Assembly (NCBI GenBank): GCA_016841745.1
Contig: JAENYO010000007.1
Coordinates: 9,408 to 73,407 of the forward strand
From: Acetomicrobium hydrogeniformans
GTDB lineage: Bacteria; Synergistota; Synergistia; Synergistales; JAFGMB01
Length of the DNA: 64,000 nucleotides
Direction: 5' to 3'
Shown: positions 24,941 through 64,000 of the stretch, in pieces
Layout of the letters: the number at the start of each line of letters is the position of its first letter
Position numbering within the stretch: the stretch's first letter is position 1
Translations under genes and position numbers: made by a program
Notes under the pieces: generated by a model
Told to the model about the DNA's origin: nothing
Databases searched by the model: none
Seen by the model: the letters and a program-made list of their open reading frames with translations, nothing else

Positions 24941-24984
24941 ATTTCTCCCTCCAATCTGATCTTGCCGAAAATGTGTAATTGAGG

Positions 24985-26475
24985 TTACTTTCCCTCAATC
25001 TTCTGATTGTATATCCGGGAATAAACAGCCTGGTATTCGGGGGCTGAATGGTTCCAGGAAAAATCCATCTTCATTCCTCTATCCCTTATACTATTCCATC
25101 TATTCTTATTTTTAAAGGATTTAAAAGCCCTTTGAAGAGATGACAGCATTGCATGAGATGAAAATTCAGAAAAAACGAATCCAAAACCTTCACTATTACT
25201 GTCAGCATCAAGAACAGTATCGGCAAGGCCGCCAACAGACCTGACAACGGGGACTGTTCCGTACCTGAGGGAAATCAGCTGGGAAAGACCGCATGGTTCG
25301 AAGAGTGATGGCATCAGAAATATATCTCCTGCACCATAAACAAGATGTGCCAGAGGCTCATCATATCCTTTCACAAAAGAGACTTTATCAGGGTATTCCC
25401 TGGTCTTTTTGAAAAGAGCTTCTTCATACGTTTTTTCGCCGCTTCCTAGAATAAATATCCTGCCTCCCCAGTTGATGATCTGTTCAATGCCCTCGAGCAT
25501 CAGTTCTATTCCCTTCTGTTTGTAAAGTCTACCCACCATAGTGATCAGCGGACTGCAGTTTTTTTCCCAGCCTGTCTTTTCAAAAAGCGTTGATCGGCAG
25601 ACCATTTTCCCAGACATGTTCCCCCTGTCATAATTGGAAGGAAGAAAGCTGTCACTTGACGGATTCCAGTAATCTGTATCAAGACCATTAAGGATTCCGG
25701 AAACTTTTGAGATGTTTTGTTTTACGACCCCCTCAAGACCCATTCCCATGGATTTATGAGTTATCTCTGATGCGTAACGGGGACTGACGGTTGTTACTGC
25801 ATGAGATGCAATAATGGCTCCTTTCAGAAGGTTTACAGAGTTATAATACTCAAGGCCCTCCATGTGAAATGCTTTATTCAATCCCCATCCTTCAAGCACT
25901 TCCGGTTTGAGAATTCCCTGGTGGGCCAGATTATGGATAGTGAGAACCGTCCTGTATTGGTTCTGATAACAGCTGAAGTAGGGATGCCATTTCATTGCTA
26001 TAGGAACTATGGAAGTAGACCAGTCATGTAAATGAAATATATCCGGTGTCCATGGGATAGCATTGGAGATCTGAAATGCAGCGAAGGAAAGGAAGATAAA
26101 GGGTAGAGCAGTTGTCTGGTTCAATTCTCCAGGGTATATCCCGGGATCGTTGAAAATATCAGGGTTATCAAGGACATAAACAGGAGTAGTCCCATACTGT
26201 ATTTTCCAGAGCCTGGATGAGTAGACCCGCCAGTTGATTGAAAGGTCTATGTTGCGCCTGATCCTGGTAATTCTGTAATCCATTTTTTCTGCTTGTTCGA
26301 AAACACCTGGAAATGCAGGGATCAGTACCCTGGCATCGGTTCCAATTCTGTTAAGTGCTCCAGGGAGGGAAGATATAACATCAGCAAGTCCACCAATCTT
26401 TGAAAAAGGAGCCATTTCCGGAGCCACATGGAGGACTTTGAATCCTCCTTCTAAATGGTCAGACAAAAAGATCAC
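24985..26475 (-). CDS. glgA: glycogen synthase (GT5)
   Basis: KIGGLADV motif near the N-terminus and C-terminal PSLFEPCGLSQL. The start is uncertain (GTG 26475 or TTG 26466). Confidence 0.9.
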   Translation of the reverse strand: MIFLSDHLEGGFKVLHVAPEMAPFSKIGGLADVISSLPGALNRIGTDARVLIPAFPGVFEQAEKMDYRITRIRRNIDLSINWRVYSSRLWKIQYGTTPVYVLDNPDIFNDPGIYPGELNQTTALPFIFLSFAAFQISNAIPWTPDIFHLHDWSTSIVPIAMKWHPYFSCYQNQYRTVLTIHNLAHQGILKPEVLEGWGLNKAFHMEGLEYYNSVNLLKGAIIASHAVTTVSPRYASEITHKSMGMGLEGVVKQNISKVSGILNGLDTDYWNPSSDSFLPSNYDRGNMSGKMVCRSTLFEKTGWEKNCSPLITMVGRLYKQKGIELMLEGIEQIINWGGRIFILGSGEKTYEEALFKKTREYPDKVSFVKGYDEPLAHLVYGAGDIFLMPSLFEPCGLSQLISLRYGTVPVVRSVGGLADTVLDADSNSEGFGFVFSEFSSHAMLSSLQRAFKSFKNKNRWNSIRDRGMKMDFSWNHSAPEYQAVYSRIYNQKIEGK

Positions 26476-26507
26476 CTCTGTTCCGGATGGAAAGATCTTC
26501 TCTGATT

Positions 26508-28244
26508 TTACATCCCCAGGAATTCGATACCGTAGGCCTGTTCACAATATTCACGGACGACCCTGTGGGTGTTGAAATAACTGGCATTAAGGGCAATGAT
26601 ATTTTTCATCATCCCGATCCAGCCTTCCCTGTCTTTGTAATAAAGGGGGATAACCTTTTCTTCGAGCTTCCTGTAGAGGTCCTCTGCATCTTTTGTTTCA
26701 TCATAGCTTGACAGGAAATTTTCTACCGCCTCCGGTCCGATCGCCCATCCTGTTACTCCTTCGATACAACCTTCAATCCACCAGCCGTCCAGGATCGAAA
26801 AATTTGGGACCCCATTCAGGGCACATTTCATGCCGCTGGTTCCTGAGGCTTCCCTGGGTCTGCGGGGAGTATTAAGCCAGAGATCAACTCCCTGTGTCAA
26901 GAGCGCACCTGTTTCCATATCGTAATCTTCAAGGAAAACAAGGGGAATATTGTCTCCGAGAACCTCAGACAGGCCTATTATCTTCTGAATGATTCCCTTG
27001 CCACCTTCATCTCGGGGATGAGCTTTTCCTGCAAATACGAGCTGGATTTTTCCCGAGGCTATATCCAGTAGTTTGTGAAGGTCGGAAAAAATAAGATCAG
27101 CCCTCTTGTAAGGGGTGGCTCTTCTGCCGAAGCCTATGGTGAGGATATTTTCATCAAGCCTGATGTCCTGTGTATCCTTAATATATGAGATCAGTCTGGA
27201 TTTGGCTGACATATGAGCCTTCCATATCTTGTTACCGGATATATTGACGGACTGTACCATCCTGGCAGGTGCGTTTATCCAACCAGGAATGGATGAATCA
27301 AAGATGAGTTTCATTTCAGGGCTGATCCACGTTCCAGGGTGGACCCCGTTGGTTATTGAATGAATGTCCTCTTTTTGGAACATTTTTCTACTGACTTCGG
27401 CATGTTTTCTGGATACTCCATTAACAAAGGAGCAGTAGCGCATCCCCAATTCAGTCATGGAGACACCTTCCTGAGAAAGCATCTTTCTTAACTGGTTTAC
27501 AATGTTAACGCTCATTACCTTTTCAACCAGTTCGTATGAGAAGTGGTCATGTCCAGCCGGAACCGGCGTATGGGTAGTGAATACACCCCGTTCACGGATT
27601 TTCTGGAAATTTTCAAAACCCTCTTCCCGTAACATTTCCAAAACAAGGAATGCCGCATGGCCTTCATTAAGGTGAAATTTTCTAAGATTGTTAAATCCTA
27701 TGGAACGGAGCATTCTCAAGCCGCCAAGCCCCAGGATCAGTTCCTGACAGAGGCGATATCTTTCATCACCTCCATAGAGGCTGCCGGTAAGGGCTCGGTC
27801 CTTTGGATCATTTCCTTCAATATCAGTATCCAGGAAATAAACTGGTATGGTATAACCAGTATTTCCTGTGATTTCATGTACCCAGACCCTGATCATGATT
27901 TTCCTCTGTTCAAGGGTTATGATTATTTCATTGGGAAGGAGTTCCATCTCTTCAGAAGGATCCCATTCGGCAGGTTTTTCAACCTGCCGTCCATTTATAT
28001 CCAACTCCTGCGTAAAGTAGCCCTTTCTGTAGAGCAGGGTAACTCCCACCATGGGTACTGCCAGATCTGCGGCACTTTTCAAAATGTCTCCAGCCAGAAT
28101 CCCGAGTCCTCCTGCGTATGTGGGCATGTTTGCCTTGATTCCTATTTCCATTGAAAAATATGCAACGGTCCTGAAAATGGGATCAAAGTCCATGATACCC
28201 TTAAGCGATTTTGTCGTGTTAACACCACACTTCATAAGTGTCAT
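26508..28244 (-). CDS. glgP: alpha-glucan phosphorylase (GT35, short form)
   Basis: 578 aa with AYFSMEIG, GGLGILAGD and the PLP-lysine region EASGTSGMK. Confidence 0.85.
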   Translation of the reverse strand: MTLMKCGVNTTKSLKGIMDFDPIFRTVAYFSMEIGIKANMPTYAGGLGILAGDILKSAADLAVPMVGVTLLYRKGYFTQELDINGRQVEKPAEWDPSEEMELLPNEIIITLEQRKIMIRVWVHEITGNTGYTIPVYFLDTDIEGNDPKDRALTGSLYGGDERYRLCQELILGLGGLRMLRSIGFNNLRKFHLNEGHAAFLVLEMLREEGFENFQKIRERGVFTTHTPVPAGHDHFSYELVEKVMSVNIVNQLRKMLSQEGVSMTELGMRYCSFVNGVSRKHAEVSRKMFQKEDIHSITNGVHPGTWISPEMKLIFDSSIPGWINAPARMVQSVNISGNKIWKAHMSAKSRLISYIKDTQDIRLDENILTIGFGRRATPYKRADLIFSDLHKLLDIASGKIQLVFAGKAHPRDEGGKGIIQKIIGLSEVLGDNIPLVFLEDYDMETGALLTQGVDLWLNTPRRPREASGTSGMKCALNGVPNFSILDGWWIEGCIEGVTGWAIGPEAVENFLSSYDETKDAEDLYRKLEEKVIPLYYKDREGWIGMMKNIIALNASYFNTHRVVREYCEQAYGIEFLGM

Positions 28245-28316
28245 CCTCTACTACCTCCTGTTACCTTTTCTCTCCAGTATTCTCCTGTAGAAAAGCGTAA
28301 GATCCGATACTCCTGA

Positions 28317-29834
28317 TCAAGAACCCTCTATATTCAACCTACCGAATATGGCAGTTATTTCATAAAATCTTTCAGCAAGAGAACCTTCCAAATAGGAAGG
28401 GTCTATTCTCCATTCCCAGTTACCTCTGGAGATAGCAGGTCTGTTTGTCCTGGCCCAACTGCCAAGTGCCAGCAGATCCTGCATTGGAATAATACAAGTC
28501 GTTGCAACTGATACCATGGCCATCCTTATCAATTCCCATGATACATTATCGCCATCGGCTAGAGAACCATTATACAGGTTCAGGGTTTGTTTCTGTTTCT
28601 CAGAGAGTTCCTCTTCAAACCATCCCTTTGTGGTGTTGTTATCATGGGTTCCCGTGTAGACTATATTGTTTGGTGTGTGGTTATGGGGGAGATAAGGGTT
28701 GTTTTTCATGTCTCCGTCGAATGCAAACTGGAGTACAAGCATTCCCGGGAGACCTAGTTTTTCCATAGCCTGATCCACGTCAGGAGTTATTACACCCAGG
28801 TTTTCGGCAATGATGGCAAATTCGGTGAATTGTTCAACGAGTCCTTCAAAAAAGGCATTGGATGGACCTCTTTCCCAGTGACCTTTTACAGCTGTATTTT
28901 CACCAGATGGAATTGACCAGTATGAAAGAAAGCCCCGAAAATGATCTATACGAAGAAGGTCGCAGATCCGTCCAGCATGACCGATCCTGTTATACCACCA
29001 TGAAAAACCGTCTTCTTCAAGTTTATTCCACAGGTAAAGAGGATTACCCCAACGTTGTCCATTCTCACTGAAATAATCGGGAGGAACTCCCGCTACAGCT
29101 TGAGGATATCCGGATCGGTCAAGTTGGAAGTATTTTCTGTTGGCCCATACGTCTGCACTATCGAGATCGACATATATGGGCATATCACCAAGTATATCGA
29201 TCTTTTTATGTCTGCAGTATTCGTGAAGGTCTGTCCACTGTTTGGAAAAGAGGTACTGTACGAATTTCAGATAATCCAGTTCCCTTTCAAGAGTCAGCTT
29301 AGCTCTGGAAAGGGATTCCGGATTCCTGTCCCGGAAATCTTCTGGCCATTCATACCAGGGTTTTTCCCGAAAATATCCTTTTAATGCTTTAAAAAGAACG
29401 AAATCATCCAGCCAATAACTGTTCCCTCTGCAGAAACTGCTATAACTCTTTGTATAATTCATTTCTGTTGATCTCTGAAATGCTTCTACAAGGATTTCTG
29501 TTTTAAATTTTTCTACGAGAGCATAATGGACCCTGTCATTTCCAAAGTCTGGTGTATCCAGGAGACTTGCCTTCCTGAGCAGCCCATCTTCAAAAAGCAT
29601 CTGGGGACTAATATAAAGAGGATTTCCGGCAAAGGCCGAAACCGAGCTGTAGGGAGAATTGCCCGTAGCCTGTTGTGTCATGGAAAGAGGCAGGATCTGC
29701 CATACTGATTGGCCTGATTTAGAAAGGAAATCACAGAAACACCTTGACCCGGGTCCCATATCTCCGATTCCAAACCTTGAAGGCAGGGAGAATAGGGGCA
29801 TGAGAATACCACTTCTTCTTTCCTTATGAATCAC
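28317..29834 (-). CDS. malQ: 4-alpha-glucanotransferase (GH77 amylomaltase)
   Basis: 505 aa with RSGILMPLFSLPS, RIDHFRGF and the GTHDN motif. GTG start after GGAGGG. Confidence 0.9.
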   Translation of the reverse strand: MIHKERRSGILMPLFSLPSRFGIGDMGPGSRCFCDFLSKSGQSVWQILPLSMTQQATGNSPYSSVSAFAGNPLYISPQMLFEDGLLRKASLLDTPDFGNDRVHYALVEKFKTEILVEAFQRSTEMNYTKSYSSFCRGNSYWLDDFVLFKALKGYFREKPWYEWPEDFRDRNPESLSRAKLTLERELDYLKFVQYLFSKQWTDLHEYCRHKKIDILGDMPIYVDLDSADVWANRKYFQLDRSGYPQAVAGVPPDYFSENGQRWGNPLYLWNKLEEDGFSWWYNRIGHAGRICDLLRIDHFRGFLSYWSIPSGENTAVKGHWERGPSNAFFEGLVEQFTEFAIIAENLGVITPDVDQAMEKLGLPGMLVLQFAFDGDMKNNPYLPHNHTPNNIVYTGTHDNNTTKGWFEEELSEKQKQTLNLYNGSLADGDNVSWELIRMAMVSVATTCIIPMQDLLALGSWARTNRPAISRGNWEWRIDPSYLEGSLAERFYEITAIFGRLNIEGS

Positions 29835-30005
29835 CGAAAACTCCCTCCTTTCATCTTTGTATTAAAAGGTTAGCATTTTAAAACGAATATAACAACTATA
29901 CTGGAATGTTTTCAGTCTTTCTCGATTAACGGAGTATGGACTCAGACTGCTATAATTCTTGTAGGGACAGCGGGTGTTGCTTCCGCAAGAGGGAGGAGTG
30001 AATAA

Positions 30006-31931
30006 ATGGAGCGTTCTTTATCAGAGGATGGTATTGGAAAGGCCAGCCTGTTTTCAGACCTTGATGTTTTCCTTTTCAGGGAAGGAACCCACTGCAACCT
30101 TTTTGAAAAGCTTGGTTCCCATGAATTAGTCCATTCTGGTTCAAAGGGTACGTATTTTGCGGTCTGGGCGCCAAATGCGGTAGAAGTGTCTCTTATCGGT
30201 GATTTTAATCAATGGAAACAGGGAGAGAATATGCTTTCCTTAAGAAATGACGGATCGGGTATATGGGAGTGTTTTATCCCTGGCATAGGGAAAGGCTCCC
30301 TTTACAAGTACCATATTTGTTCCAGATATCATAACTATTCTGTTGATAAGGGAGATCCCTTCTCTTTTTTCTGGGAAGTGTCTCCCAGAACAGCTTCTGT
30401 TGTATGGGACCTTGAATATGAATGGGGTGATGAGGACTGGATATCCCGGCGTGAAGTAATGAATCTGTCCACCTCTCCAATTTCAATATATGAAATCCAC
30501 CTGGGATCCTGGAGACCCGGAGGCAATGGTTCCGATCCTCTTACTTACAGGGAAATAGCCCCACTTCTTTCAGAACATGTGAAAAAACTTGGCTTTACCC
30601 ATGTGGAATTTCTCCCACTTATGGAACATCCTTTTTATGGTTCATGGGGATACCAGACAGTGGGCTATTTTGCTCCGACAAGCCGCTATGGAACTCCCCA
30701 GGACCTTATGTACCTTATCGACTATCTTCATCAGAAGGGGATCGGGGTCATACTGGATTGGGTCCCGTCACATTTCCCTAGTGACGAATATGGACTTGCC
30801 AGATTTGATGGTACGGCCCTTTTTGAACATGAAGATCCCCGGCAGGGTTTCCATCCTGATTGGAAAAGCAGTATCTTCAATTATGGGAGAAAAGAGGTAC
30901 ATGCGTTCCTTATAAGCAGTGCCATGTTCTGGATCGAACATTATCATGCAGATGGTCTCAGGATTGATGCCGTTGCGTCAATGCTGTATCTGGATTATTC
31001 CAGGGAAGAGGGACAATGGATACCCAACAGGTATGGCGGAAGGGAAAACCTTGATGCCATTGATTTACTGAGAAAACTTAATACTGCCGTTTTTGAGCGA
31101 TTTCCCCATGTTCAGATGATCGCTGAAGAATCAACCTCCTGGCCCATGGTTACCAGGCCGGTTCATGTTGGAGGTCTGGGTTTCTCCATGAAATGGAACA
31201 TGGGGTGGATGCATGACGTCCTGGAATATATGAGCACTGATCCCATCTTCAGGAAGTATCATCACGACAAGCTTACCTTCAGTATCTGGTATGCTTTTTC
31301 CGAGGATTTCCTGTTACCTGTATCCCATGATGAAGTAGTTCATGGCAAGGGGTCTCTTCTTAACAAGATGCCGGGGGATACGTGGAGAAAATTTGCAAAT
31401 ATGAGAGTCTTTTTAGGTTATATGTATGCCCACCCGGGAAAGAAACTCCTTTTTATGGGTGTCGAGATGGGGCAGATGTCTGAATGGAATCATGACGGAT
31501 ACCTGCACTGGGATTTGTTGGACCACCTTCCCCACCAGGGTGTATCTTTATGGATAAGGGACCTGAACAGTTTGTACCGAAATGAAAGGGCTCTTTATTC
31601 TACAGATTATGATCCAAAGGGATTTGAATGGATCGATTTTGGCGATGCGGAAAAAAGTATAATTGCTTTTTTGAGATCTGATGGTAAGTCCCTTATTCTT
31701 ACTGCCTGTAACTTTACGCCTGAGCCTAGATATGAATACAGGATAGGAGTTCCTTATTCTGGATACTGGAGTGAAATTCTAAACAGTGATTCCCATATAT
31801 ATGGTGGAACCGGTCACGGAAATTTTGGAGGCATAGAAGCAGAGAAGATTCAACATCATGGACGGCCCTTTTCTCTTATGGTTACATTACCCCCGCTCTG
31901 CTGTATCATTTTTAAACTTTCAGAGGTGTAG
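30006..31931 (+). CDS. glgB: 1,4-alpha-glucan branching enzyme (GH13)
   Basis: 641 aa with DWVPSHF, GLRIDAV, AEEST and SHDEVVHGK motifs. Confidence 0.95.
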   Translation: MERSLSEDGIGKASLFSDLDVFLFREGTHCNLFEKLGSHELVHSGSKGTYFAVWAPNAVEVSLIGDFNQWKQGENMLSLRNDGSGIWECFIPGIGKGSLYKYHICSRYHNYSVDKGDPFSFFWEVSPRTASVVWDLEYEWGDEDWISRREVMNLSTSPISIYEIHLGSWRPGGNGSDPLTYREIAPLLSEHVKKLGFTHVEFLPLMEHPFYGSWGYQTVGYFAPTSRYGTPQDLMYLIDYLHQKGIGVILDWVPSHFPSDEYGLARFDGTALFEHEDPRQGFHPDWKSSIFNYGRKEVHAFLISSAMFWIEHYHADGLRIDAVASMLYLDYSREEGQWIPNRYGGRENLDAIDLLRKLNTAVFERFPHVQMIAEESTSWPMVTRPVHVGGLGFSMKWNMGWMHDVLEYMSTDPIFRKYHHDKLTFSIWYAFSEDFLLPVSHDEVVHGKGSLLNKMPGDTWRKFANMRVFLGYMYAHPGKKLLFMGVEMGQMSEWNHDGYLHWDLLDHLPHQGVSLWIRDLNSLYRNERALYSTDYDPKGFEWIDFGDAEKSIIAFLRSDGKSLILTACNFTPEPRYEYRIGVPYSGYWSEILNSDSHIYGGTGHGNFGGIEAEKIQHHGRPFSLMVTLPPLCCIIFKLSEV

Positions 31932-31933
31932 TA

Positions 31934-34354
31934 ATGACTATTTATGTATGTGTTCACGGTCACTTCTACCAGCCGCCGAGGGAGAATCCCTGGCTGGAAG
32001 AAGTCGAGATCCAGAGAACTGCTGCGCCATATGAGAACTGGAACGAAAGAATAACGGCAGAATGCTATTCTCCCAACGGAGCTGCCCGTATTCTTGGAGA
32101 AAAGGGTTTGATAACCGCAATCCAGAACAATTATTCCAGGATGAGCTTTAACTTTGGACCGACCCTTCTATCATGGCTGGAAGTGCATTCACCTCATACT
32201 TATGAAAACATATTGAGGGCTGATACAGAAGGTCGGAAGAGATTTTCTGGCCATGGCCCTGCAATCGCCCAGGCCTACAATCATATGATCCTCCCCCTTG
32301 CTTCGGACAGGGATAAAAGAACCCAGATATTATGGGGTATCGCTGATTTTGAAAAGAGATTTAAACGTTTTCCAGAAGGCATGTGGCTTCCAGAAACTGC
32401 AGTGGATCTGAAAACCCTGGAATTCCTTTCAGAAGAAGGCATACAGTTCACCATCCTTTCACCATATCAGGCTTCCAGGATACGTCTTTCAGAAGGTGTT
32501 CCCTGGACAGGTGTAAGGGGAGGGAAAATAGATCCATCCACTCCTTATAGCTGCCAGCTTCCTTCTGGAAGGACTATAGCCCTTTTTTTCTATGATGGAA
32601 GAATTTCACAGGATATTGCTTTCGGCGGATTGCTCAGAAATGGTGAAATGTTTGCTCAACGATTTCTTTCCAGATGGGACAGGAAAACAGGTGAAGGAAG
32701 AATTATTTCTGTCGCGACTGACGGAGAAACGTACGGACATCATCAAAAATATGGAGACATGGCTCTTGCATACTGTCTTGACCGGATAGAAGGAGAAATG
32801 GGAGCTGAGCTTACCATATTCGGGGAATTCCTGGAGAAACACCCCGCCATAAGGGAAGTAGAGATAATAGAGAACAGTTCCTGGAGCTGTGTGCATGGAG
32901 TGGAGAGATGGAGGGGCGATTGTGGCTGCTGTACTGGAATGAACCACGATTGGAACCAGTCCTGGCGTAAGCCCCTCAGGGAAGGGCTTGACTGGTTACA
33001 TACGGAACTGGAATCCATCTTTTTAGACTCCATGAAAGGAAAGGTCAGGGATCCATGGCTCACAAGAGATGAGTATATACATTTAATCCTTGAAAGATCA
33101 AAGGAGAACATGGATAACTTCATCAAATCTCATTCAGAAAGTGAACTTTCAGTTGTTGACAGGGAACTGGTAATGAAATCTCTGGAGATGCAGCGCTCGG
33201 CTATGCTTATGTTTACCAGTTGCGGATGGTTCTTTGATGATCTTTCGGGCATCGAATCTCTCCAGATACTTCGTTATGCTGCTCATGCCATTCAATATGC
33301 CATGGAGATATCTGGAAATAACCTGGAACCAGCTTTCCTTAATTTTCTTGGAAGGGCGAAAAGCAACATTCCGGATCAGGGAACTGGAGTGGAGATTTAC
33401 AGCAATTCTGTGAAACCATTCAGTTTTGACCTTTCCAGGTTGGGAGCACATTACGGTATTCTTTCATTGTTTACGGATGAACCTTCTAACATCTCGATGT
33501 ATTGTTACAAAGTTATTCCACTTAAAGAATTTTCTCTGAATGCAGGTAAAATAAAATTTTGCGGGGGATGCCTGAACATAGAATCAGATATTACCCTTGA
33601 ATCGTGTCGTACCTGGTATGCTTCTCTTGGTCTTGGCGGGCACAATGTACTATGTTCCCTTTCTCCAGATCTTGGAGAAGATGTTTTCAGCAGATTCATT
33701 GAGGAGGTTCGATTATTCTTCAGCAAGGGAAATATTCCTGGCGTTATCAGTACCATAGACGACTATTTTGGTGGCCATGATTATGATCTGGGCCATATTT
33801 TCCGGAATGAACAGCAGAAGGTCTTTAATTCCATAATTCGAGGGGATCTTTTGCGTCTTGAATCTTTTCTCAGGGAGATAATTGAAGATGATTATCTGTT
33901 AATGAATTTTATCTCTTCAGTACAGATGCCAGTGCCTCCCCAGTTTCTTAAAGCTGCAGAAGTTGTCCTCAACTCGGGAATCAGGGAAGAATTTGATAAG
34001 GATTTACCAGATCTCGAGAATATCAGAAATTCCTTCGATACTGCAAAACGATGGAAGATAGCCCTGGATATGGATCTTTTTGAACTTTCTGCTTCAAGAT
34101 GGATTAATAGCCAGATACAGGATCTTGAACAAAATTGTTATGATGTCCCTGTTTTGATAAATTTAGCGGCTTTTTTGAAAGTTATCGGTGAAATCGGTTT
34201 GAAGCCGGATCTATGGTTCAGCCAGAACATATTTTTCAGAATAAAAACTGGTTGTGGTTATGCGGGGCTTGCGATGAATGAAGTTGAGGGGTTTACAGTA
34301 GAATGGAAGATCCATTTTGAGGAACTGGGTCGCCTTTTAAAAGTATTGATCTGA
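31934..34354 (+). CDS. GH57-family glycoside hydrolase with long C-terminal extension
   Basis: N-terminal HGHFYQPPRENPW, a GH57 hallmark. 806 aa. The start is 3 nt after the glgB stop. Confidence 0.8.
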   Translation: MTIYVCVHGHFYQPPRENPWLEEVEIQRTAAPYENWNERITAECYSPNGAARILGEKGLITAIQNNYSRMSFNFGPTLLSWLEVHSPHTYENILRADTEGRKRFSGHGPAIAQAYNHMILPLASDRDKRTQILWGIADFEKRFKRFPEGMWLPETAVDLKTLEFLSEEGIQFTILSPYQASRIRLSEGVPWTGVRGGKIDPSTPYSCQLPSGRTIALFFYDGRISQDIAFGGLLRNGEMFAQRFLSRWDRKTGEGRIISVATDGETYGHHQKYGDMALAYCLDRIEGEMGAELTIFGEFLEKHPAIREVEIIENSSWSCVHGVERWRGDCGCCTGMNHDWNQSWRKPLREGLDWLHTELESIFLDSMKGKVRDPWLTRDEYIHLILERSKENMDNFIKSHSESELSVVDRELVMKSLEMQRSAMLMFTSCGWFFDDLSGIESLQILRYAAHAIQYAMEISGNNLEPAFLNFLGRAKSNIPDQGTGVEIYSNSVKPFSFDLSRLGAHYGILSLFTDEPSNISMYCYKVIPLKEFSLNAGKIKFCGGCLNIESDITLESCRTWYASLGLGGHNVLCSLSPDLGEDVFSRFIEEVRLFFSKGNIPGVISTIDDYFGGHDYDLGHIFRNEQQKVFNSIIRGDLLRLESFLREIIEDDYLLMNFISSVQMPVPPQFLKAAEVVLNSGIREEFDKDLPDLENIRNSFDTAKRWKIALDMDLFELSASRWINSQIQDLEQNCYDVPVLINLAAFLKVIGEIGLKPDLWFSQNIFFRIKTGCGYAGLAMNEVEGFTVEWKIHFEELGRLLKVLI

Positions 34355-35407: not shown

Positions 35408-36178
35408 ATGTATTCTTCCTTTAGGCTTATGATAGCATGGAAAGTTTTCTTCTTCCTTCTGATCTTGTCATTATTATTTATTTGCCCAAGGGAGGTAGCC
35501 GCTATGAATACTGACAAGAGTGTTCTTTCAAAGAAGCCCATTCTTGATGAAGAACTGCCTTTAAAGGTTGAAACTGCGACGTTTGCTCTGGGCTGATTCT
35601 GGGGACCTGATTCCCGGTTCGGGATAATTCCAGGAGTTATACGTACACGGGTGGGTTATTCTGGCGGGACGTTAAAGGATCCCAGCTACCATGATCTGGG
35701 TGACCATACTGAAAGTATTCAGATGGACTTTGACCCCGAAAAGCTTTCCTTTTCTGAGTTACTTGAAGTTTTCTGGGCAAGTCATGATCCTACACAAAAG
35801 GCTTCATCCCGTCAGTATATTTCTATTCTTTTTTATCATAATGAATCGCAGAAACAAAAGATCATCGAAAGTATATCAGAAGAAGAGAGAAAACGTGGAA
35901 GACTTATTCTAACAGAAGTGATTCCCTTCCGTGAATTTTACCTGGCTGAAGAATATCACCAGAAATATCGCTTGAAAATGTTCAGGGAGTTTATGGATGA
36001 ATATTCAAAGATCTTTGTAAGTGATAGAGAACTTACTGATTCGACTGCTGCAGCAAGGCTTAACGGATATGTTTCCGGGATGGGTGATCTTTTACAGCTT
36101 GAAAATGAGATAGACCTCCTCGGTTTATCTTCAGCCGCTCAAGATAAACTCAGAAAGATGGTATCTGCTTCAGAATAG
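35408..36178 (+). CDS. msrA: peptide methionine-S-sulfoxide reductase MsrA, selenocysteine form (in-frame UGA at 35594-35596)
   Basis: ORFs 35408..35596 and 35651..36178 are in one frame. Read-through gives ...ATFALG-U-FWGPDSRFGIIPGVIRTRVGYSGG...FDPEKLSFSELLEVFWASHDPTQ, so the UGA sits exactly at the catalytic Cys of the GCFWG motif. An alternative start is ATG 35504. Confidence 0.8.
35606..35634 (+). promoter_or_regulatory. candidate bacterial SECIS hairpin for msrA
   Basis: cctgattccc-GGTTC-gggataattccagg folds into an imperfect stem. The apical loop GGUUC begins 22 nt after the U of UGA. Folded by hand only. Confidence 0.45.
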
Positions 36179-46101: not shown

Positions 46102-47682
46102 ATGAAAAAGATCCTTACGTTACTGGCAGTTCTTGCACTTTTATGTACTGGAGCTTTTTACATGTTGTTCAAGCCCGTACCCGTTACACTTGTTACGGAA
46201 GATTTCATTCCTTCGAGGGTAGAGGGAGATAATACTTTTCTGCTGTTAAAGATAGCTGACTCAGGAGCTTTTACCGGTCCTTTAGTCCATGTTACAGACT
46301 ATTTCGCAGAGAAAATGTCGAAGACTGCAAATACTACATCTTCAGAAACAGTTCGGGATCTGCGATTCCTGAGAGACTGTATAAAAGAATATTCTCCTGC
46401 TTTTGGTGAATCCAGGGTCTTTTTTTCAGCCAGACCGGGAGGTCAGATGCCGGAAATCAGTCTTTACGGAGTCTGCGCAATAAGGGAGAAGGAACCAGAA
46501 TCTATCTTGAATTCTCTTTTTGATCAGATATCCTCGAAGACTGATGATCTTTCAGTAATTCCATATAGCGCGGACCTGGGCGAGGATGTGCTCCCCCTCT
46601 ATCAGATCTTTGATACAACTACTGGAATGACCTTATCTATAGCTCTTTTCGGGACAGACCCGGTATTTCTTCTTTTTTCTTCTGGAACTGAAGGGCTCCG
46701 AGATATGATCGCAGCAGCTGCTGACCCTTCTGGGAAATTGGAGATTCAAGAAAAACTGACGGAAATGAACAGTATTTACCTATCCCTGGATACTTCGATG
46801 TTCAAAGTATTGCTAGAATCAGAAGGTGTGCATTTTTTTTCTGAAAAGCCAGTTATTTTAGAGGTCTCTTTCCAGAAGGATAATGAAGGATGGATGATCA
46901 GATCACATTCAAATGTTGCTGAAATATTTATGTCTGAAGAACAACGTGAGTCCTACCAACCTCTCAAGGGCATTCCAGAATTTCCGGGAGGAGGGCAGGT
47001 TATAGGTTTTATCCATGGGAGGACTTCCGGTCTTGACGCTTCAAGGATAGAAAACATGCTGAATGATCCCAAGGCTTCAGAAGCAAGGCTTGGGATGGAA
47101 TATTTTGAGAAACTCTACGGTATAACCCTGGAGGATATCGTTGATCTCTTTGGAGGCACTCTTTCTCTGGTCCTTGGGGGAAGGTCCTTCAGTCCTTTAG
47201 GTGAAATCCCAGGGTTTTATGTCATGTTTCAGCCTGAAAAGGAGGGTATTGCCGAAAAATTCATGTCAATTGTCCCTTTGCTTAATTTACCCTTGCCTGT
47301 AAATCAGATCGAAATTCCAGAATGGGAGAGGGTTTATGGAATTGATTCTGTAATGCGCTTTACCCTTGCCAGCAGGAATAAACAGCTTCTGGCAGGAGTC
47401 CTTGATCCTCAGCAGCTCTCTGTAGTTTTGGAGATTCCTGAAAATCTGAGTAGATTTGTGAAGGGAGATAGTTACGGTATATTAGCCCTTTCTGTTGGAA
47501 GGCTTGAAGAAGAGCTTGTGGAACTATCAAAAAGAATGGGACCCATAATGCAGAATGATACGATCGACAACGACATTAAAAAGTTTCGGGAGGTCCTTGG
47601 ACATGTGGATTCCTTTATTGCCAGGGGAGAATCCCTTTATGATTCTTTTCTTAAGATCCTTATAAATCAGGAAAGGGAGTAG
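46102..47682 (+). CDS. exported/anchored hypothetical protein (526 aa)
   Basis: N-terminal signal or anchor MKKILTLLAVLALLCTGAF. No family recognised. Confidence 0.5.
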   Translation: MKKILTLLAVLALLCTGAFYMLFKPVPVTLVTEDFIPSRVEGDNTFLLLKIADSGAFTGPLVHVTDYFAEKMSKTANTTSSETVRDLRFLRDCIKEYSPAFGESRVFFSARPGGQMPEISLYGVCAIREKEPESILNSLFDQISSKTDDLSVIPYSADLGEDVLPLYQIFDTTTGMTLSIALFGTDPVFLLFSSGTEGLRDMIAAAADPSGKLEIQEKLTEMNSIYLSLDTSMFKVLLESEGVHFFSEKPVILEVSFQKDNEGWMIRSHSNVAEIFMSEEQRESYQPLKGIPEFPGGGQVIGFIHGRTSGLDASRIENMLNDPKASEARLGMEYFEKLYGITLEDIVDLFGGTLSLVLGGRSFSPLGEIPGFYVMFQPEKEGIAEKFMSIVPLLNLPLPVNQIEIPEWERVYGIDSVMRFTLASRNKQLLAGVLDPQQLSVVLEIPENLSRFVKGDSYGILALSVGRLEEELVELSKRMGPIMQNDTIDNDIKKFREVLGHVDSFIARGESLYDSFLKILINQERE

Positions 47683-61271: not shown

Positions 61272-61552
61272 AAAAATAAAGACCCGTCCCTGTGAAGGGA
61301 CGAGTCTGGATAAACTCGCGGTACCACCCGACTTGAATTTCTGAAGAACCAGAAATTCCGCTTTGAGCCCTTTAACGGAGGCTGAACCGGGATCTTACTT
61401 CAGGAGTTTTGAATCCCTTTCAGAACCAGCTCCACAGGTTTTGGGCCTTCAGATAACATCGGGGACCCCTTTCAGCCGGTGAGTATCCCTCTCTGTCGAT
61501 GTTTACAACCTTTCAAGCGCCCTGCTTCTTCGCTTTTCCTATTATTATTACT
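61272..61552 (-). promoter_or_regulatory. T-box leader, promoter-distal copy (adjacent to asd), predicted Lys (AAA) specifier
   Basis: On the minus strand: CAGAGAGGG, CCGGCUGAAA, and specifier loop UCUGAAGGCCCAAAA with AAA at 61442-61440 plus a purine. Also GAAGUAAG, F-box CCGUUA and T-box GGGUGGUACCGCG (61329-61317). The terminator is AGACUCGUCCC/GGGACGGGUCU plus a U-run. Confidence 0.8.
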
Positions 61553-61819
61553 AAAAAAAGGCCCGTCCCTGTGAAGGGACGAGCCTGGATAAACTCGCGG
61601 TACCACCCGACTTGAATTTCTGAAAAACCAGAAATTCCGCTTTGAGCCCTTTAACGGAGGCTGAACCGGGATCTTACTCAGGGAGTTTGAAATCCCTTTC
61701 AGAACCAGCTCCACAGGTTTTAGGCCTTCAGATAACATCGGGGACCCCTTTCAGCCGGTGAGCATCCCTCTCTGTCGATGTTTACAACCTTTCAAGCGCC
61801 CTGCTTCTTCGCTTTTGGT
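61281..61819 (-). repeat. direct tandem duplication (2 x ~260 nt, 279-nt period) comprising the two T-box leaders
   Basis: Manual alignment of 61281-61539 with 61560-61818 shows about seven differences, including a compensatory pair in the terminator stem. Confidence 0.85.
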
Positions 61820-61936: not shown

Positions 61937-62485
61937 CTATACGTATTTCCTTATCATATCCAATCCTTTCCTGTACTTCGGCGGGATATTTTCTGAAGCC
62001 GGATATCCCAGGCTGAGCAGAAGATCTATCTTTATATTTCCTTTAAGTCCCAGCTGTTTTTTTACTGACCCTTCATTGAACCAGCCAAACCAGCATGTAC
62101 CCAAACCCATTTCTGTTGCCTGAAGAGAAATATGCTCACATGCGATTCCTATATCCAGAAGGCTGAACTGGACTCCTCTGAAAAGGCCTCCAAGTCTTGC
62201 TGTATATTTTGATGGTTCCGTTATAACTGTAATTATTACTGGTGCTGTTCTGGCAAAGGCGTTCATGGAAAAGGCTCCTGAAAATGCTGTTTCTGCTAGA
62301 GGTATGCTTTTTTCATATCCCATGGATATCATAAAGAACCACGGTTGAGAATTACAGGCAGAAGGTGCAAATTGTGCTGCTTCCATGCATTTTTCAACCA
62401 TTTCTTTGGGTACTTCCCTGTGGATGTATTTTCGGACGCTGTATCTATGTTTCACGAGATCCGTGAAATCCATTATTTTATCCAA
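61937..62485 (-). CDS. nitroreductase-family protein
   Basis: 182 aa. RYSVRKY near the N-terminus, APSACNSQPW, and C-terminal LGYP are typical of the NADH oxidase/flavin reductase nitroreductase fold. Confidence 0.8.
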   Translation of the reverse strand: MDKIMDFTDLVKHRYSVRKYIHREVPKEMVEKCMEAAQFAPSACNSQPWFFMISMGYEKSIPLAETAFSGAFSMNAFARTAPVIITVITEPSKYTARLGGLFRGVQFSLLDIGIACEHISLQATEMGLGTCWFGWFNEGSVKKQLGLKGNIKIDLLLSLGYPASENIPPKYRKGLDMIRKYV

Positions 62486-62491
62486 TCCTTA

Positions 62492-63193
62492 TCATGGCGC
62501 TTTGTAGATAAGGAGCAAACCAATGATAAGAAGGATTACTCCAAAAACGTAATTCATTACAAGGGTAAACCTGGATTTTTCATCAAGCTTCATGAATCCT
62601 GAAACAAAACCGACAGAAGTTCCGGCTGTAACGAGAACGGTACAGTTTCCAAGAGCATACATCAAAACCAGCAAGAAACCAAAATAGGGATTGACCGTAG
62701 CAGCTTTCATTGCTATCACCAGCATGGGAGCCAGGTATGCAAATGCACATGGACCAATGGCCATCCCGGAAAGAGCCCCAAGCAGAAGAGCCCCAAGAGG
62801 GCCTTTATGTTTGTATTCTTTCATCCCGGCCTGTTTGAACCATGGCATATCTATCACTTCGAGAAGGTGAAGACCGAAGAGGAAAAAGACAGTCGCGACA
62901 AAATAATTGGAGTATCTGCCAACCTCCGATAAAAGGCTTCCTGCAGAAGCTATAACTACACCTACAAGGGCTACATTCACAAAAATACCCAGGGAAAACC
63001 ACGAGGATATAACGAAAGCATTTTTCATGCCTCTGGTTTCCTGGGATTCTATGTATCCCACCACAATGGGTATTGTTACAAGACTGCAGGGGCTCAGCAG
63101 CATACCGAAAACCCCCCAGATATAGGATGCCAGGAGGGCTAAATAACCAGCCCCCTGTAATGTCGTATATACTTTACTGACGAGCTCTATCAT
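62492..63193 (-). CDS. ccdA: CcdA/DsbD-family thiol-disulfide electron transfer membrane protein
   Basis: 233 aa, ~6 TM segments. Two conserved Cys sit in TM helices (LSPCSLVTIP and IGPCAFAYLAP). The start overlaps the upstream stop as TAATG. Confidence 0.8.
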   Translation of the reverse strand: MIELVSKVYTTLQGAGYLALLASYIWGVFGMLLSPCSLVTIPIVVGYIESQETRGMKNAFVISSWFSLGIFVNVALVGVVIASAGSLLSEVGRYSNYFVATVFFLFGLHLLEVIDMPWFKQAGMKEYKHKGPLGALLLGALSGMAIGPCAFAYLAPMLVIAMKAATVNPYFGFLLVLMYALGNCTVLVTAGTSVGFVSGFMKLDEKSRFTLVMNYVFGVILLIIGLLLIYKAP

Positions 63194-63603
63194 TAAGGCT
63201 GTTTCCCTTCTTCTTTAAGTTCAAATCCCAGCTCCTTCCATTTTTTCAGAAGCATTTCTTCGGTCATTACACCTTCATGTCTGTAAAGTTCATTTTGTTC
63301 CGGATCCAGAAATATCAAAGTAGGTACAACTCTTATAGAGTATTTTTCTGCTTCTTCAGGTTGTTTCCAGAGGTCTATCATATTGATTTCCACACTTCCC
63401 ATGTATCTTTTCTGGAATTCTTCCAGAATCCCTTTCATTTCCCTGCAGGCAGGTCAGGTCGCAGTTGCCATATCAAGGAGGACAGGAAGTTTGCCATTTG
63501 CAACTACCTGTTGTTCCACCTCGTTGCTATTTTTGAGCATAAAAGTTGCTATTATTGCTATTCCAAGGATCGATAGAATTATGATCTTACGCATTTTTCC
63601 CAT
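63193..63603 (-). CDS. membrane-anchored thioredoxin-like protein with UxxC (selenocysteine) redox motif, in-frame UGA at 63456-63454
   Basis: ATG 63603 follows GGAGGAAGG. An N-terminal anchor (IIILSILGIAIIATF) is followed by ...LPVLLDMATAT-U-PAC-REMKGILEEF..., continuing in frame into track ORF 63193..63438 (VVPTLIF, typical cis-Pro Trx fold). Confidence 0.75.
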
Positions 63604-63925
63604 GTTCCTTCCTCCTTTTCTCTACGACGCAGAACCATTATATAATATACCGTTTAGGCATATATATCCAGATAACTGTTTACTATGCAAAATTATATCT
63701 TCTACGCGAATATCTAAATAGAGGATAATCGTTGACCTCTGTGCTTTACCGGGCAATAATTATTCTATGGTAATAGTCTAGTTTCACCAGTATCGTATCC
63801 TTGTTCCTACAGGATCGGAAAGGATAGTATGATAATACTATTGAGTAATTGGTCAGTTATTCGTTAATATTACATATTCTTTTAACGATTGATAAAATAT
63901 GGGGAATGTTTTCGGAGGTTTTTAT

Positions 63926-64000
63926 ATGATAGCGCAAAAAATAATTGAGTTATCGGAAAAATATTGTGATGAAATAATCAGGATTCGCAGAAAGATTCAC
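63926..64000 (+). CDS. 5' end of a probable M20-family amidohydrolase (partial, runs off window)
   Basis: ATG 63926 follows GGAGG. MIAQKIIELSEKYCDEIIRIRRKIH resembles the ...IxxRRxxH(xxPE) N-terminus of M20D amidohydrolases. Only 25 codons are visible. Confidence 0.35.
   Translation, partial: MIAQKIIELSEKYCDEIIRIRRKIH

What the first reader, a model, noticed from the sequence alone, without database searches (positions are those of the whole stretch)
63193..63603. Thioredoxin-like gene with U-P-A-C motif hidden by an in-frame UGA
- **Missed N-terminus:** the ORF track reports only the C-terminal 81 codons (63193..63438). Extending upstream in the same frame reaches ATG 63603 with a GGAGGAAGG RBS.
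- **Sec position:** the only interruption is TGA at 63456-63454, which lies exactly where a Trx-fold CxxC starts (...DMATAT-U-PAC-REM...).
- **Architecture:** an N-terminal membrane anchor suggests an extracytoplasmic reductase.
- **Second case:** together with msrA this is the second UGA-at-redox-Cys gene in the window, so the organism very likely decodes Sec.
- **Possible SECIS:** a perfect 6-bp hairpin CUGGAA-GAA-UUCCAG lies 31-45 nt after the UGA (63426-63412). I am unsure whether it is the SECIS element.
Basis: partly seen in the sequence, partly recalled or inferred. Interest (0 to 1): 0.7.

Follow-up and report, generated by a model that had tools for sequence, protein, structure and literature searches.

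The report
Membrane-anchored selenocysteine thioredoxin beside CcdA
A small thioredoxin-like gene in a Synergistales bacterium very probably uses an in-frame UGA to place selenocysteine at its active site, so annotation pipelines cut it in half; it is a convincing but fairly ordinary new member of a well-known class of bacterial selenoproteins.

Summary
Window 63603..63193 (-) is one 136-codon frame with a single TGA (63456-63454) at the first position of a thioredoxin CxxC (T-U-P-A-C). The same in-frame TGA occurs in 34 related loci (23 distinct sequences, 33-93% identity). It is never TAA or TAG, and 87 related loci have TGC/TGT there. The sequence upstream of the TGA evolves as coding sequence in this frame. 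TGA is an ordinary stop for 21 of 51 window ORFs, so the code is not reassigned.

A conserved hairpin, GGGAUUC-UGGAA-GAAUUCC (63432-63414), fits the published bacterial SECIS geometry. It shows two compensatory pair changes and frozen synonymous sites (Leu CUG and Phe UUC in 17 of 17 sequences).

The protein has an N-terminal membrane anchor. Its stop overlaps the start of ccdA, and that linkage holds in 28 of 29 Sec loci. It is most likely an extracytoplasmic selenol/thiol reductase recharged by CcdA.

The window's msrA also carries U at its catalytic Cys position. Sec machinery could not be checked. Verdict: a new member of a known kind, mis-annotated as a truncated "thioredoxin family protein" in public MAGs. 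Interest is modest.

The parts
63193..63603 (-). Full coding sequence of the thioredoxin-like selenoprotein (136 codons including U50; stop TAA at 63195-63193)
   Evidence: Single frame with one TGA. Pfam PF00085 4.3e-13 and PF13098 1.2e-11 over residues 31-121, both above their cutoffs. Orthologs keep the same frame.
63607..63615 (-). Shine-Dalgarno sequence GGAGGAAGG, 3 nt before ATG 63603
   Evidence: Read directly. No comparable conserved SD precedes the internal ATG 63438.
63535..63585 (-). N-terminal membrane anchor (residues 7-23, IIILSILGIAIIATFML), preceded by K3/R5/K6
   Evidence: Hydropathy 2.21 over residues 7-25. Every Sec and Cys homolog has an N-terminal hydrophobic segment. The AlphaFold model of ortholog P0002 has a helix at residues 2-38.
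63454..63456 (-). UGA codon 50, read as selenocysteine; first (nucleophilic) position of the U-P-A-C redox motif
   Evidence: TGA in 34 loci, TGC in 69, TGT in 18, never TAA/TAG. Aligns with the first Cys of the CxxC in solved thioredoxins, e.g. 2L57 TDT-CPYC.
63445..63447 (-). Cys53, the resolving cysteine of U-P-A-C
   Evidence: Invariant in all Sec and Cys forms.
63414..63432 (-). Conserved SECIS candidate: stem GGGAUUC (63432-63426), loop UGGAA (63425-63421), stem GAAUUCC (63420-63414); the loop starts 28 nt after the UGA
   Evidence: 98.3% of cells paired across 17 distinct sequences and 2 of 7 pairs compensatory. Synonymous sites frozen: Leu CUG and Phe UUC in 17 of 17. Fits the bSECIS geometry rules.
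63412..63426 (-).
   Evidence: The most stable register in this window (-7.8 against -6.7 kcal/mol). Only 75.5% paired with no covariation across relatives.
63322..63324 (-). Pro94 of V-P-T, the cis-proline loop of the thioredoxin fold
   Evidence: Invariant R/x-V-V-P-T-L. Aligns with the I/V-P-T loop of solved thioredoxins.
62492..63193 (-). ccdA (DsbD_TM family, 233 aa). Its ATG shares one base with the TAA of the selenoprotein gene. Cys36 (SPC) and Cys149 (GPC) are present.
   Evidence: PF02683 1.4e-16. 1-nt overlap TAATG. CcdA is immediately downstream in 28 of 29 Sec loci.
61937..62485 (-). Nitroreductase-family gene, third gene of the unit in this lineage only (accessory)
   Evidence: PF00881 1.5e-28. 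Present in L001 and L004 but absent in L007, L117 and L118.
35504..36178 (+). msrA with UGA (35594-35596) at the catalytic Cys position (G-U-F-W-G): a second candidate selenoprotein gene in the window
   Evidence: TIGR00401 121.9 bits against a cutoff of 108.1 with U->C.

Best explanation
The gene encodes a 135-residue, membrane-anchored thioredoxin-fold selenoprotein. The ribosome reads UGA codon 50 as selenocysteine. This is directed by a small stem-loop inside the coding sequence (7-bp stem, loop U-G-G-N-N, starting 21 nt after the UGA), which is expected to bind SelB carrying Sec-tRNA(Sec). The product has a U-P-A-C active site at the N-terminus of the first helix of a classical thioredoxin domain. 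That domain is tethered by one N-terminal transmembrane helix, most probably on the outer (periplasmic) face of the membrane. The next gene, ccdA, is translationally coupled. CcdA would carry reducing equivalents from cytoplasmic thioredoxin across the membrane and reduce the selenenylsulfide U50-C53. The selenolate then attacks disulfides or other oxidised groups in envelope proteins. Shown here: the conserved in-frame UGA, the Sec/Cys pairs, the fold and active-site register, nucleotide-level constraint on the hairpin, and the CcdA linkage. Inferred: actual Sec insertion, topology, electron flow through CcdA, and the substrates.
For: - Frame and motif.
- The Pfam Thioredoxin match crosses the UGA.
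- 16 of 17 database homologs are 77-82 aa truncated calls starting at the same Met, each preceded by a 47-56 aa ORF ending 15 nt upstream.
- Translation across the gap gives U-P-[AS]-C in 23 distinct sequences at 33-93% identity.
- A syntenic full-length CPAC ortholog exists (P0002/L007), and 78 distant relatives have C[IVM]PC.
- The codon at the site is TGA 34, TGC 69, TGT 18, and never TAA/TAG.
- Upstream of the UGA there are 0 in-frame stops in 22 x 44 codons, against 54 and 80 in the other frames, and third-position differences dominate.
- TGA ends 21 of 51 window ORFs, including ccdA.
- Hairpin: 98.3% paired, two compensatory pairs, and register slides fall to 8-67%. Leu CUG and Phe UUC are fixed in 17 of 17 sequences, while other invariant residues use 2-6 codons.
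- bSECIS-type hairpins with E <= -5 kcal/mol occur in 18 of 23 Sec forms and 3 of 85 Cys forms. The rules are from PMC13188914.
- U50 aligns with the first Cys of the CxxC in solved thioredoxins.
- The P0002 model (pLDDT 81.7) places that Cys at the start of helix 1. It superposes on thioredoxins at about 1.5 A, including periplasmic TrxP of B. fragilis.
- CcdA linkage.
- msrA has G-U-FWG in the same window.
- 13 of 14 sequenced Synergistetes use Sec (PMC5029168).
Against: - No selA, selB, selD or tRNA-Sec was found in the window or in the related loci held. The rest of the genome could not be searched.
- The stem lies in conserved codons (G-I-L-E-E-F), so the protein sequence forces most of the pairing.
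- Whole-region folding energy is not significant for single sequences. The window gives z = -1.15 against dinucleotide shuffles and z = -0.85 against synonymous recodings.
- The hairpin-only energy (-6.7 to -8.7 kcal/mol; -3.9 to -4.1 in L090/L093) sits around, and mostly just short of, the -7.5 kcal/mol rule.
- Group B is GC-richer, which could by itself favour AUC over AUU at one of the two 'compensatory' pairs.
- Topology, the CcdA partnership and the substrates rest on gene order and analogy only.
- There are no expression or proteomic data.
Confidence: 0.85

Rival explanations
1. The TGA is a real stop. The locus encodes two separate products: a 49-residue membrane peptide and an 81-residue thioredoxin fragment starting at MKGILEEF, as current gene callers annotate it.
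For: Gene callers in several sources, including two NCBI MAG records, call exactly these two ORFs. An ATG lies 4 codons after the TGA in every sequence. TGA is a common stop in this genome.
Against: The 81-aa piece lacks the CxxC and strand 1 of the fold, so it could be neither redox-active nor stable. The four codons between the TGA and the ATG (P-A-C-x) are conserved as protein while their synonymous sites vary. The spacing is always exactly 15 nt and in frame. No conserved Shine-Dalgarno precedes the internal ATG. That Met is the conserved K-M of the thioredoxin CGPCKM helix and is also present in Cys forms. Cys orthologs are continuous.
Confidence: 0.04
2. The gene is a pseudogene, or the TGA is an assembly or sequencing error in an ordinary Cys-thioredoxin gene (TGC/TGT to TGA).
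For: A single base change converts TGC/TGT to TGA. The window comes from an uncultured lineage, and its nearest genome match is a MAG.
Against: The same TGA appears in 34 loci from independent assemblies and samples, covering 23 distinct sequences down to 33% identity. Both flanks are under purifying selection and no other stop or frameshift is present.
Confidence: 0.01
3. The UGA is read through, but not as selenocysteine. It could be near-cognate Trp or Cys insertion, or a lineage-wide reassignment of UGA, giving a W/C-P-A-C protein.
For: Sec machinery was not observed directly. UGA read-through and reassignment exist in some bacteria (general knowledge).
Against: 21 of 51 ORFs in the window end in TGA, so there is no reassignment. 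The aligned residue in 87 loci is Cys, the standard partner of Sec. A conserved stem-loop with an invariant UGG loop at bSECIS distance is under nucleotide-level selection, which simple leaky read-through would not need. A second UGA sits at the catalytic Cys of msrA, a known Sec/Cys family. The phylum is selenoprotein-rich.
Confidence: 0.05
4. The functional SECIS in this organism is the reader's hairpin (63426-63412, loop GAA, 33 nt after the UGA), not the conserved register.
For: In the window sequence it is the minimum-free-energy hairpin (-7.8 against -6.7 kcal/mol). It also fits the bSECIS rules, with G first in the loop and a 33-nt spacing. The window has a G.U wobble in the conserved register.
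Against: Across 17 distinct relatives it is 75.5% paired. Three of its six pairs are broken in 4-11 sequences, and there is no compensatory change. It cannot explain the frozen CUG and UUC codons in lineages where it cannot form. The two registers are mutually exclusive.
Confidence: 0.12

Closest known systems
Sec-containing thioredoxin (UxxC; PF00085), for example the experimentally studied form listed in the PMC13188914 inventory (its ref. 84, Kim et al. 2015)
   Same: Thioredoxin fold. Sec replaces the first, nucleophilic Cys of the CxxC. Passes the PF00085 gathering score. The SECIS lies inside the coding sequence.
   Different: This protein has an N-terminal membrane anchor and is coupled to ccdA. 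Its motif is U-P-A-C rather than a WCGPC type. It scores only 49 bits on TIGR01068, whose cutoff is 96.8. It is therefore not an ortholog of cytoplasmic TrxA.
'Thiol:disulfide interchange protein' selenoprotein family (PF13098, UxxC; PMC1794560, PMC13188914)
   Same: UxxC in a Trx-like domain. The window protein also passes PF13098 (1.2e-11, 45.3 bits against a cutoff of 27). Found in anaerobes.
   Different: That family was described from Deltaproteobacteria (Geobacter, Syntrophus). I could not obtain a member sequence to test orthology. The papers read do not mention CcdA linkage.
CcdA-fed extracytoplasmic thioredoxins: Etrx1/Etrx2 of Streptococcus pneumoniae (PMC3914529); ResA and StoA of Bacillus subtilis and TrxP of Bacteroides fragilis (these three from general knowledge plus structural hits 3hxs/3hyp)
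   Same: A Trx-fold reductase tethered outside the cytoplasmic membrane and encoded next to a CcdA/DsbD-type electron transporter. It works like these systems.
   Different: All of those use Cys-x-x-Cys; this one uses Sec-x-x-Cys. The anchor is a transmembrane helix, not a lipid. The domain is a minimal classical thioredoxin rather than the TlpA/ResA type. The substrate is unknown: no msrAB or cytochrome c maturation gene lies in the operon.
PDB 2L57 (uncharacterised thioredoxin-like protein)
   Same: The best solved-structure match by sequence (8e-11). T-D-T-CPYC aligns with T-A-T-UPAC, and VPT-x-FLD and Y-x-H-x-G are shared.
   Different: It is a Cys protein of unknown function, and no anchor is present in the solved chain.

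Membership tests
Bacterial selenoprotein gene (UGA decoded as Sec) | In-frame UGA conserved among orthologs, with protein-level conservation on both sides | tested here: met
   34 loci and 23 distinct sequences. 0 in-frame stops upstream, against 54 and 80 in the other frames.
Bacterial selenoprotein gene (UGA decoded as Sec) | Cys-containing homologs with Cys aligned to the UGA (Sec/Cys pair) | tested here: met
   The syntenic CPAC ortholog L007, plus 86 further TGC/TGT loci.
Bacterial selenoprotein gene (UGA decoded as Sec) | bSECIS stem-loop: 3-9 nt loop, 4-16 bp stem, G in the first two loop positions, 16-37 nt from the UGA (PMC13188914, Fig. 2 legend) | tested here: met
   7-bp stem, loop U-G-G-A-A (N1-G-G-N-N2 with U/A able to pair), 28 nt spacing. 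All 23 Sec forms meet these rules. Covariation and synonymous constraint support it.
Bacterial selenoprotein gene (UGA decoded as Sec) | bSECIS free energy <= -7.5 kcal/mol | tested here: inconclusive
   Hairpin-only energies: -6.7 (window, conserved register), -7.2 to -8.7 in most relatives, -3.9 to -5.1 in L090/L093 and group C. 6 of 23 pass strictly. The published rule applies to the whole element, which I did not model.
Bacterial selenoprotein gene (UGA decoded as Sec) | selA, selB, selC (tRNA-Sec) and selD present in the genome | not testable with these tools
   None in the 64 kb window or the held loci. Indirect support only: a second UGA-at-Cys gene (msrA), and 13 of 14 Synergistetes use Sec.
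Bacterial selenoprotein gene (UGA decoded as Sec) | Selenium physically incorporated at the UGA position | not testable with these tools
   Needs 75Se labelling or mass spectrometry.
Thioredoxin fold (Pfam PF00085 / PF13098) | Score above the Pfam gathering threshold | tested here: met
   PF00085 49.6 bits (cutoff 23.5) and PF13098 45.3 bits (cutoff 27), with U->C.
Thioredoxin fold (Pfam PF00085 / PF13098) | CxxC at the N-terminus of helix 1 after strand 1, and a cis-Pro loop before strand 3 | tested here: met
   Alignment to solved thioredoxins. In the model of ortholog P0002, C71 sits directly before helix 72-87 and V-P-T before strand 116-120. Superposition is 1.5 A rmsd over 86 columns. 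The structure is a proxy, not the window protein.
Cytoplasmic thioredoxin TrxA (NCBIfam TIGR01068, NF006898) | Score above the curated equivalog cutoff | tested here: not met
   49.1 bits against 96.8, and 31.8 against 138. The N-terminal anchor also argues against it.
Named Trx-like selenoprotein families in NCBIfam (SaoT NF040730, HUIPC-motif NF047660, VPGUxxT NF041383, TsoB NF045694, PDO_seleno_TRX TIGR02187) | Score above the curated cutoff | tested here: not met
   No hit to NF040730, NF047660 or NF041383 at E <= 1e-3. TsoB scores 22 bits against 805 and TIGR02187 24 bits against 185. The same holds for group B, group C and distant Cys forms.
'Thiol:disulfide interchange protein' selenoprotein family (PF13098, UxxC) | Orthology to the described members (for example WP_011366075.1) | not tested
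   Only the shared Pfam domain and motif type were checked.
CcdA / DsbD transmembrane electron transporter (neighbour gene) | PF02683 above its cutoff and two membrane-embedded Cys, each preceded by Pro | tested here: met
   60.9 bits against 27.1. Cys36 in SPC and Cys149 in GPC.

The most novel reading that the evidence does not exclude
This family would be the first described selenol-based arm of the CcdA/DsbD envelope-reducing pathway, in which CcdA reduces a selenenylsulfide rather than a disulfide in an exported partner. The family would also have switched between Cys and Sec at least three times. One step is a gain in the ancestor of the Synergistales groups A and B. A second is an independent gain in group C, which has a differently placed SECIS (CAGAU-GGU-AUCUG, loop 17 nt after the UGA). 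The third is a Sec-to-Cys reversion (L007) that still carries a decaying SECIS; such reversions are said to be rare in bacteria.
Probability: 0.4. Interest if true: 0.45.

Novelty: new member of a known kind. Interest (0 to 1): 0.3.

Why it matters
Practical value: the gene is split into a 47-56 aa ORF and a 77-82 aa "thioredoxin family protein" in every source where a gene was called, including two NCBI MAG records. No NCBIfam model covers the family, so a dedicated model would correct many records.

Biological value: it adds an envelope-facing, CcdA-coupled selenoprotein to the selenoproteome of Synergistota, a phylum already known to be selenoprotein-rich. It also offers a compact, well-sampled case of a SECIS embedded in conserved codons, with Sec and Cys sister genes for comparison.

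It does not change what is understood about Sec decoding or thioredoxin chemistry.

Tried and rejected
- **Rfam.** No family matched at gathering thresholds anywhere in the window. A permissive scan of 63150-63650 gave only chance-level lncRNA hits. Nothing in Rfam release 15 matched this hairpin at either threshold.
- **Whole-region folding energy.** The comparison with dinucleotide shuffles and synonymous recodings is too blunt. Single sequences are not significant; only the Sec-versus-Cys comparison is (Mann-Whitney p = 0.0026). I replaced it with pair counts, synonymous-codon entropy and rule-based hairpin scoring.
- **Sec machinery.** There are no tRNAs in the window or in 15 related loci. 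No SelA, SelB or SelD domains occur in 30 window ORFs.
- **Existing full-length annotation.** The window's exact 81-aa fragment exists only on one 1.1 kb Logan contig, so the source genome was not identified.
- **Exported msrA as substrate.** A hydrophobic in-frame stretch lies upstream of msrA. I dropped the idea because a strong AAGGGAGG site sits just before the ATG at 35504, downstream of that stretch.
- **My first regex classification of loci** was too strict and was replaced by tblastn mapping.
Full report
**1. The observation**

On the minus strand, 63603..63193 is a single 136-codon frame with one internal stop, TGA at 63456-63454 (codon 50). The context is LLDMATAT-U-PAC-REMKG. The mechanical ORF list splits it into a 49-aa ORF (63603..63454) and an 81-aa ORF (63438..63193). 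GGAGGAAGG lies at 63615-63607, 3 nt before the ATG. With U written as C, Pfam Thioredoxin (PF00085, 4.3e-13) and Thioredoxin_2 (PF13098, 1.2e-11) both pass their gathering scores. The match covers residues 31-121, that is, across the UGA.

**2. Is the UGA conserved and coding?**

A protein search returned 17 homologs. Sixteen are 77-82 aa truncated calls starting at the same Met. One (P0002, 156 aa) is full length with C-P-A-C. On the contigs that carry the truncated calls, a 47-56 aa ORF always ends exactly 15 nt upstream. Translating across the gap gives ...T/G-U-P-[A/S]-C... in every case.

Scans of reference genomes and metagenomes added more loci. Over 121 loci the codon at this position is TGA in 34, TGC in 69 and TGT in 18. 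It is never TAA or TAG.

The 23 distinct Sec-form sequences fall into three groups:
- **Group A:** Synergistales type, MKGILEEF. It includes the window and a complete Synergistales MAG chromosome, OY762654.1, which is 93% identical over all 136 codons.
- **Group B:** GC-richer, MARILEGF.
- **Group C:** distant, 33-37% identity, with UP[AS]C.

Seventy-eight distant relatives from Verrucomicrobiota, Planctomycetota and other phyla all have C-[I/V/M]-P-C.

In the 44 codons upstream of the UGA there are no in-frame stops in 22 sequences, against 54 and 80 in the other two frames. Third-position differences dominate, at 2140 against 1439 and 1018. The stretch before the UGA is therefore translated in this frame.

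TGA is the ordinary stop of 21 of 51 ORFs in the window, including the adjacent ccdA. The genetic code is therefore not reassigned. A pseudogene, an assembly error, or two independent genes are each excluded or very unlikely.

**3. The SECIS**

Across 17 distinct group A and B sequences, however, it is only 75.5% paired, has no compensatory change, and has three pairs that are often broken.

The conserved element is an overlapping register: stem 63432-63426 (GGGAUUC), loop 63425-63421 (UGGAA), stem 63420-63414 (GAAUUCC). The evidence for it:
- 98.3% of cells are paired.
- Two of seven pairs change on both sides (G-C to C-G in 6 sequences, U-A to C-G in 5).
- Sliding the partner by 1-3 columns drops pairing to 8-67%.

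The stem lies in the conserved codons G-I-L-E-E-F, so I also looked at synonymous sites. At invariant residues elsewhere in the gene, 2-6 codons are in use (entropy 0.8-2.35 bits), and five other Leu columns use 3-4 codons each. Inside the hairpin, Leu is CUG in 17 of 17 sequences and Phe is UUC in 17 of 17. Ile is AUU or AUC in perfect step with its A or G partner. The loop U-G-G is invariant even though the residue encoded by the next codon varies among E, A and D.

The geometry fits the published bacterial SECIS model: a 3-9 nt loop, a 4-16 bp stem, a G in the first two loop positions (pattern N1-G-[G/U]-N-N2), and 16-37 nt from the UGA (PMC13188914). Here the stem is 7 bp, the loop is U-G-G-A-A, and the spacing is 28 nt. 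Hairpins meeting these rules with E <= -5 kcal/mol occur in 18 of 23 Sec forms and in 3 of 85 Cys forms.

Weak points:
- The hairpin-only energy is mostly just short of the -7.5 kcal/mol rule (-6.7 in the window).
- Whole-region folding energies are not significant for single sequences.
- The higher GC content of group B could contribute to one of the two 'compensatory' pairs.

Group C has a different hairpin, (UA)CAGAU-GGU-AUCUG(UA), whose loop starts 17 nt after the UGA. Rfam has nothing that matches.

**4. What the protein is**

By sequence, U50 aligns with the first Cys of the CxxC of solved thioredoxins, and V-P-T aligns with the cis-Pro loop. The best match is 2L57 (TDT-CPYC).

The window protein with U->C could not be submitted for structure prediction. 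The syntenic Cys ortholog P0002 was modelled instead, with mean pLDDT 81.7. The model shows a long N-terminal helix (residues 2-38), a low-confidence linker, and then strand-helix-strand-helix-strand-strand-helix. The first Cys sits directly before helix 1. The domain superposes on classical thioredoxins at about 1.5 A over 86 columns, including the periplasmic TrxP of Bacteroides fragilis.

Residues 7-23 of the window protein are strongly hydrophobic (mean 2.21 over residues 7-25). Three basic residues precede them, which favours an N-in, domain-out orientation. Every homolog, Sec or Cys, has such a segment.

**5. Context and mechanism**

The stop TAA overlaps by one base the ATG of a 233-aa DsbD_TM/CcdA gene (PF02683, 1.4e-16). 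That protein has Cys36 (SPC) and Cys149 (GPC). CcdA is immediately downstream in 28 of 29 Sec loci. In the Cys-form loci it is adjacent in 44 of 85 and lies within about 4 kb on the same strand in most of the rest. A nitroreductase-family gene follows in the window's lineage but not in others, so it is accessory. A consensus promoter at 61890-61862 and T-box leaders mark the start of the next transcription unit.

The best-supported mechanism is an extracytoplasmic Sec-x-x-Cys reductase. Its selenenylsulfide would be re-reduced by CcdA using cytoplasmic reducing power. This is analogous to the CcdA-Etrx system of pneumococcus (PMC3914529). The substrates are unknown.

**6. Does the organism decode Sec?**

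The window's msrA (35504..36178) has TGA at 35594-35596 in G-U-F-W-G. With U->C it passes the MsrA equivalog model (121.9 bits against 108.1). MsrA is a listed Sec/Cys family. Synergistetes are described as a selenoprotein-rich phylum in which 13 of 14 sequenced organisms use Sec (PMC5029168).

No Sec machinery lies in the 64 kb window or in the held loci. The rest of the genome could not be searched. This step remains inferred.

**7. Comparison with known families, and novelty**

Sec-containing thioredoxins (PF00085, UxxC) and a 'thiol:disulfide interchange protein' family (PF13098, UxxC) have been in bacterial selenoprotein inventories since at least 2006 (PMC1794560, PMC13188914). The window protein shares their fold and motif type.

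It fails the curated cutoffs of cytoplasmic TrxA and of every named Trx-like selenoprotein model in NCBIfam. So do its group B, group C and Cys relatives. That explains why NCBI records name only a truncated 'thioredoxin family protein'. I could not test orthology to the described 'interchange protein' family. The papers I read do not mention CcdA linkage for any selenoprotein family.

A neighbour-joining tree (about 100 residues, no support values) nests the Cys form L007 inside Sec clade A, next to L118. In L007 the hairpin has one mismatch (GGCAUUC...GAAUUCC). The tree places group C apart, among Cys forms. This suggests two gains and one loss of Sec, but it needs a proper phylogeny.

**8. 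Verdict**

It is a new, currently mis-annotated member of a well-known kind of selenoprotein, in a phylum where such proteins are expected. Interest is modest. It lies in the annotation fix, the CcdA coupling of a selenoprotein, and a clean example of a SECIS superimposed on conserved codons.

Noticed in passing
window 61293-61818 (-), promoter 61890-61862 (-): Two tandem T-box leader matches (RF00230, 62.4 and 62.0 bits, E about 5e-13, full model length, below the gathering score of 93). Each ends in a near-identical terminator hairpin (61586-61559 and 61307-61280). A perfect TTGACA-17-TATAAT promoter precedes them. They sit upstream of the asd-dapA-dapB-dapH-aspartokinase operon, which suggests tRNA-sensing control of the lysine/DAP pathway. 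The gathering-threshold scan missed them. The specifier codon was not examined.
   Followed up: partly
window 35504-36178 (+), TGA at 35594-35596: msrA with selenocysteine at the catalytic position (A-L-G-U-F-W-G). AAGGGAGG lies just before the ATG. A candidate hairpin UCCCG-GUU-CGGGA has its loop 20 nt after the UGA (-5.5 kcal/mol). Conservation in relatives was not checked.
   Followed up: partly
L007 6211-6285 (JGI 3300000504) compared with L118: The only Cys (CPAC) form inside the Sec clade keeps the hairpin sequence with a single C.U mismatch (GGCAUUC-UGGAC-GAAUUCC). This is consistent with a recent Sec-to-Cys reversion and a decaying SECIS.
   Followed up: partly
L104, L105, L108-L110 (metagenome contigs Ga0316601/Ga0316603): A distant Sec-form group (UPAC/UPSC, 33-37% identity) has a different, closer hairpin: (UA)CAGAU-GGU-AUCUG(UA), with the loop 17 nt after the UGA. 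It may be an independent acquisition of Sec in the same family. The organism was not identified.
   Followed up: partly
L013 9989-11239 (Sedimentisphaerales MAG): Here the Cys-form thioredoxin domain is fused to a C-terminal extension of about 290 residues that is rich in Cys pairs. In many Verrucomicrobiota and Planctomycetota loci, one or more genes separate the Trx gene from ccdA. These were not characterised.
   Followed up: no
window 1451-3181 and 3587-5278 (+): Two tandem gamma-glutamyltranspeptidase paralogs (PF01019, 2e-147 and 9e-165).
   Followed up: no
window 23660-34354: A glycogen metabolism cluster: glucose-1-phosphate adenylyltransferase, starch synthase, a phosphorylase-like gene, 4-alpha-glucanotransferase, a branching-enzyme-like gene, and a GH57/DUF3536 protein.
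   Followed up: no
window 6790-7899 (+), 17650-18648 (-), 46102-47682 (+): Three sizeable ORFs (369, 332 and 526 aa) have no Pfam match at E <= 1e-5.
   Followed up: no
window 63931-64000 (+): A divergently transcribed gene starts here (GGAGG, then ATG; MIAQKIIELSEKYCDEIIRIRRKIH...) and runs off the window end. From synteny with L001 and L004 it is probably the M20 peptidase/amidohydrolase. The roughly 330-nt gap to the selenoprotein gene should hold both promoters; only weak sigma-70-like matches were found.
   Followed up: no
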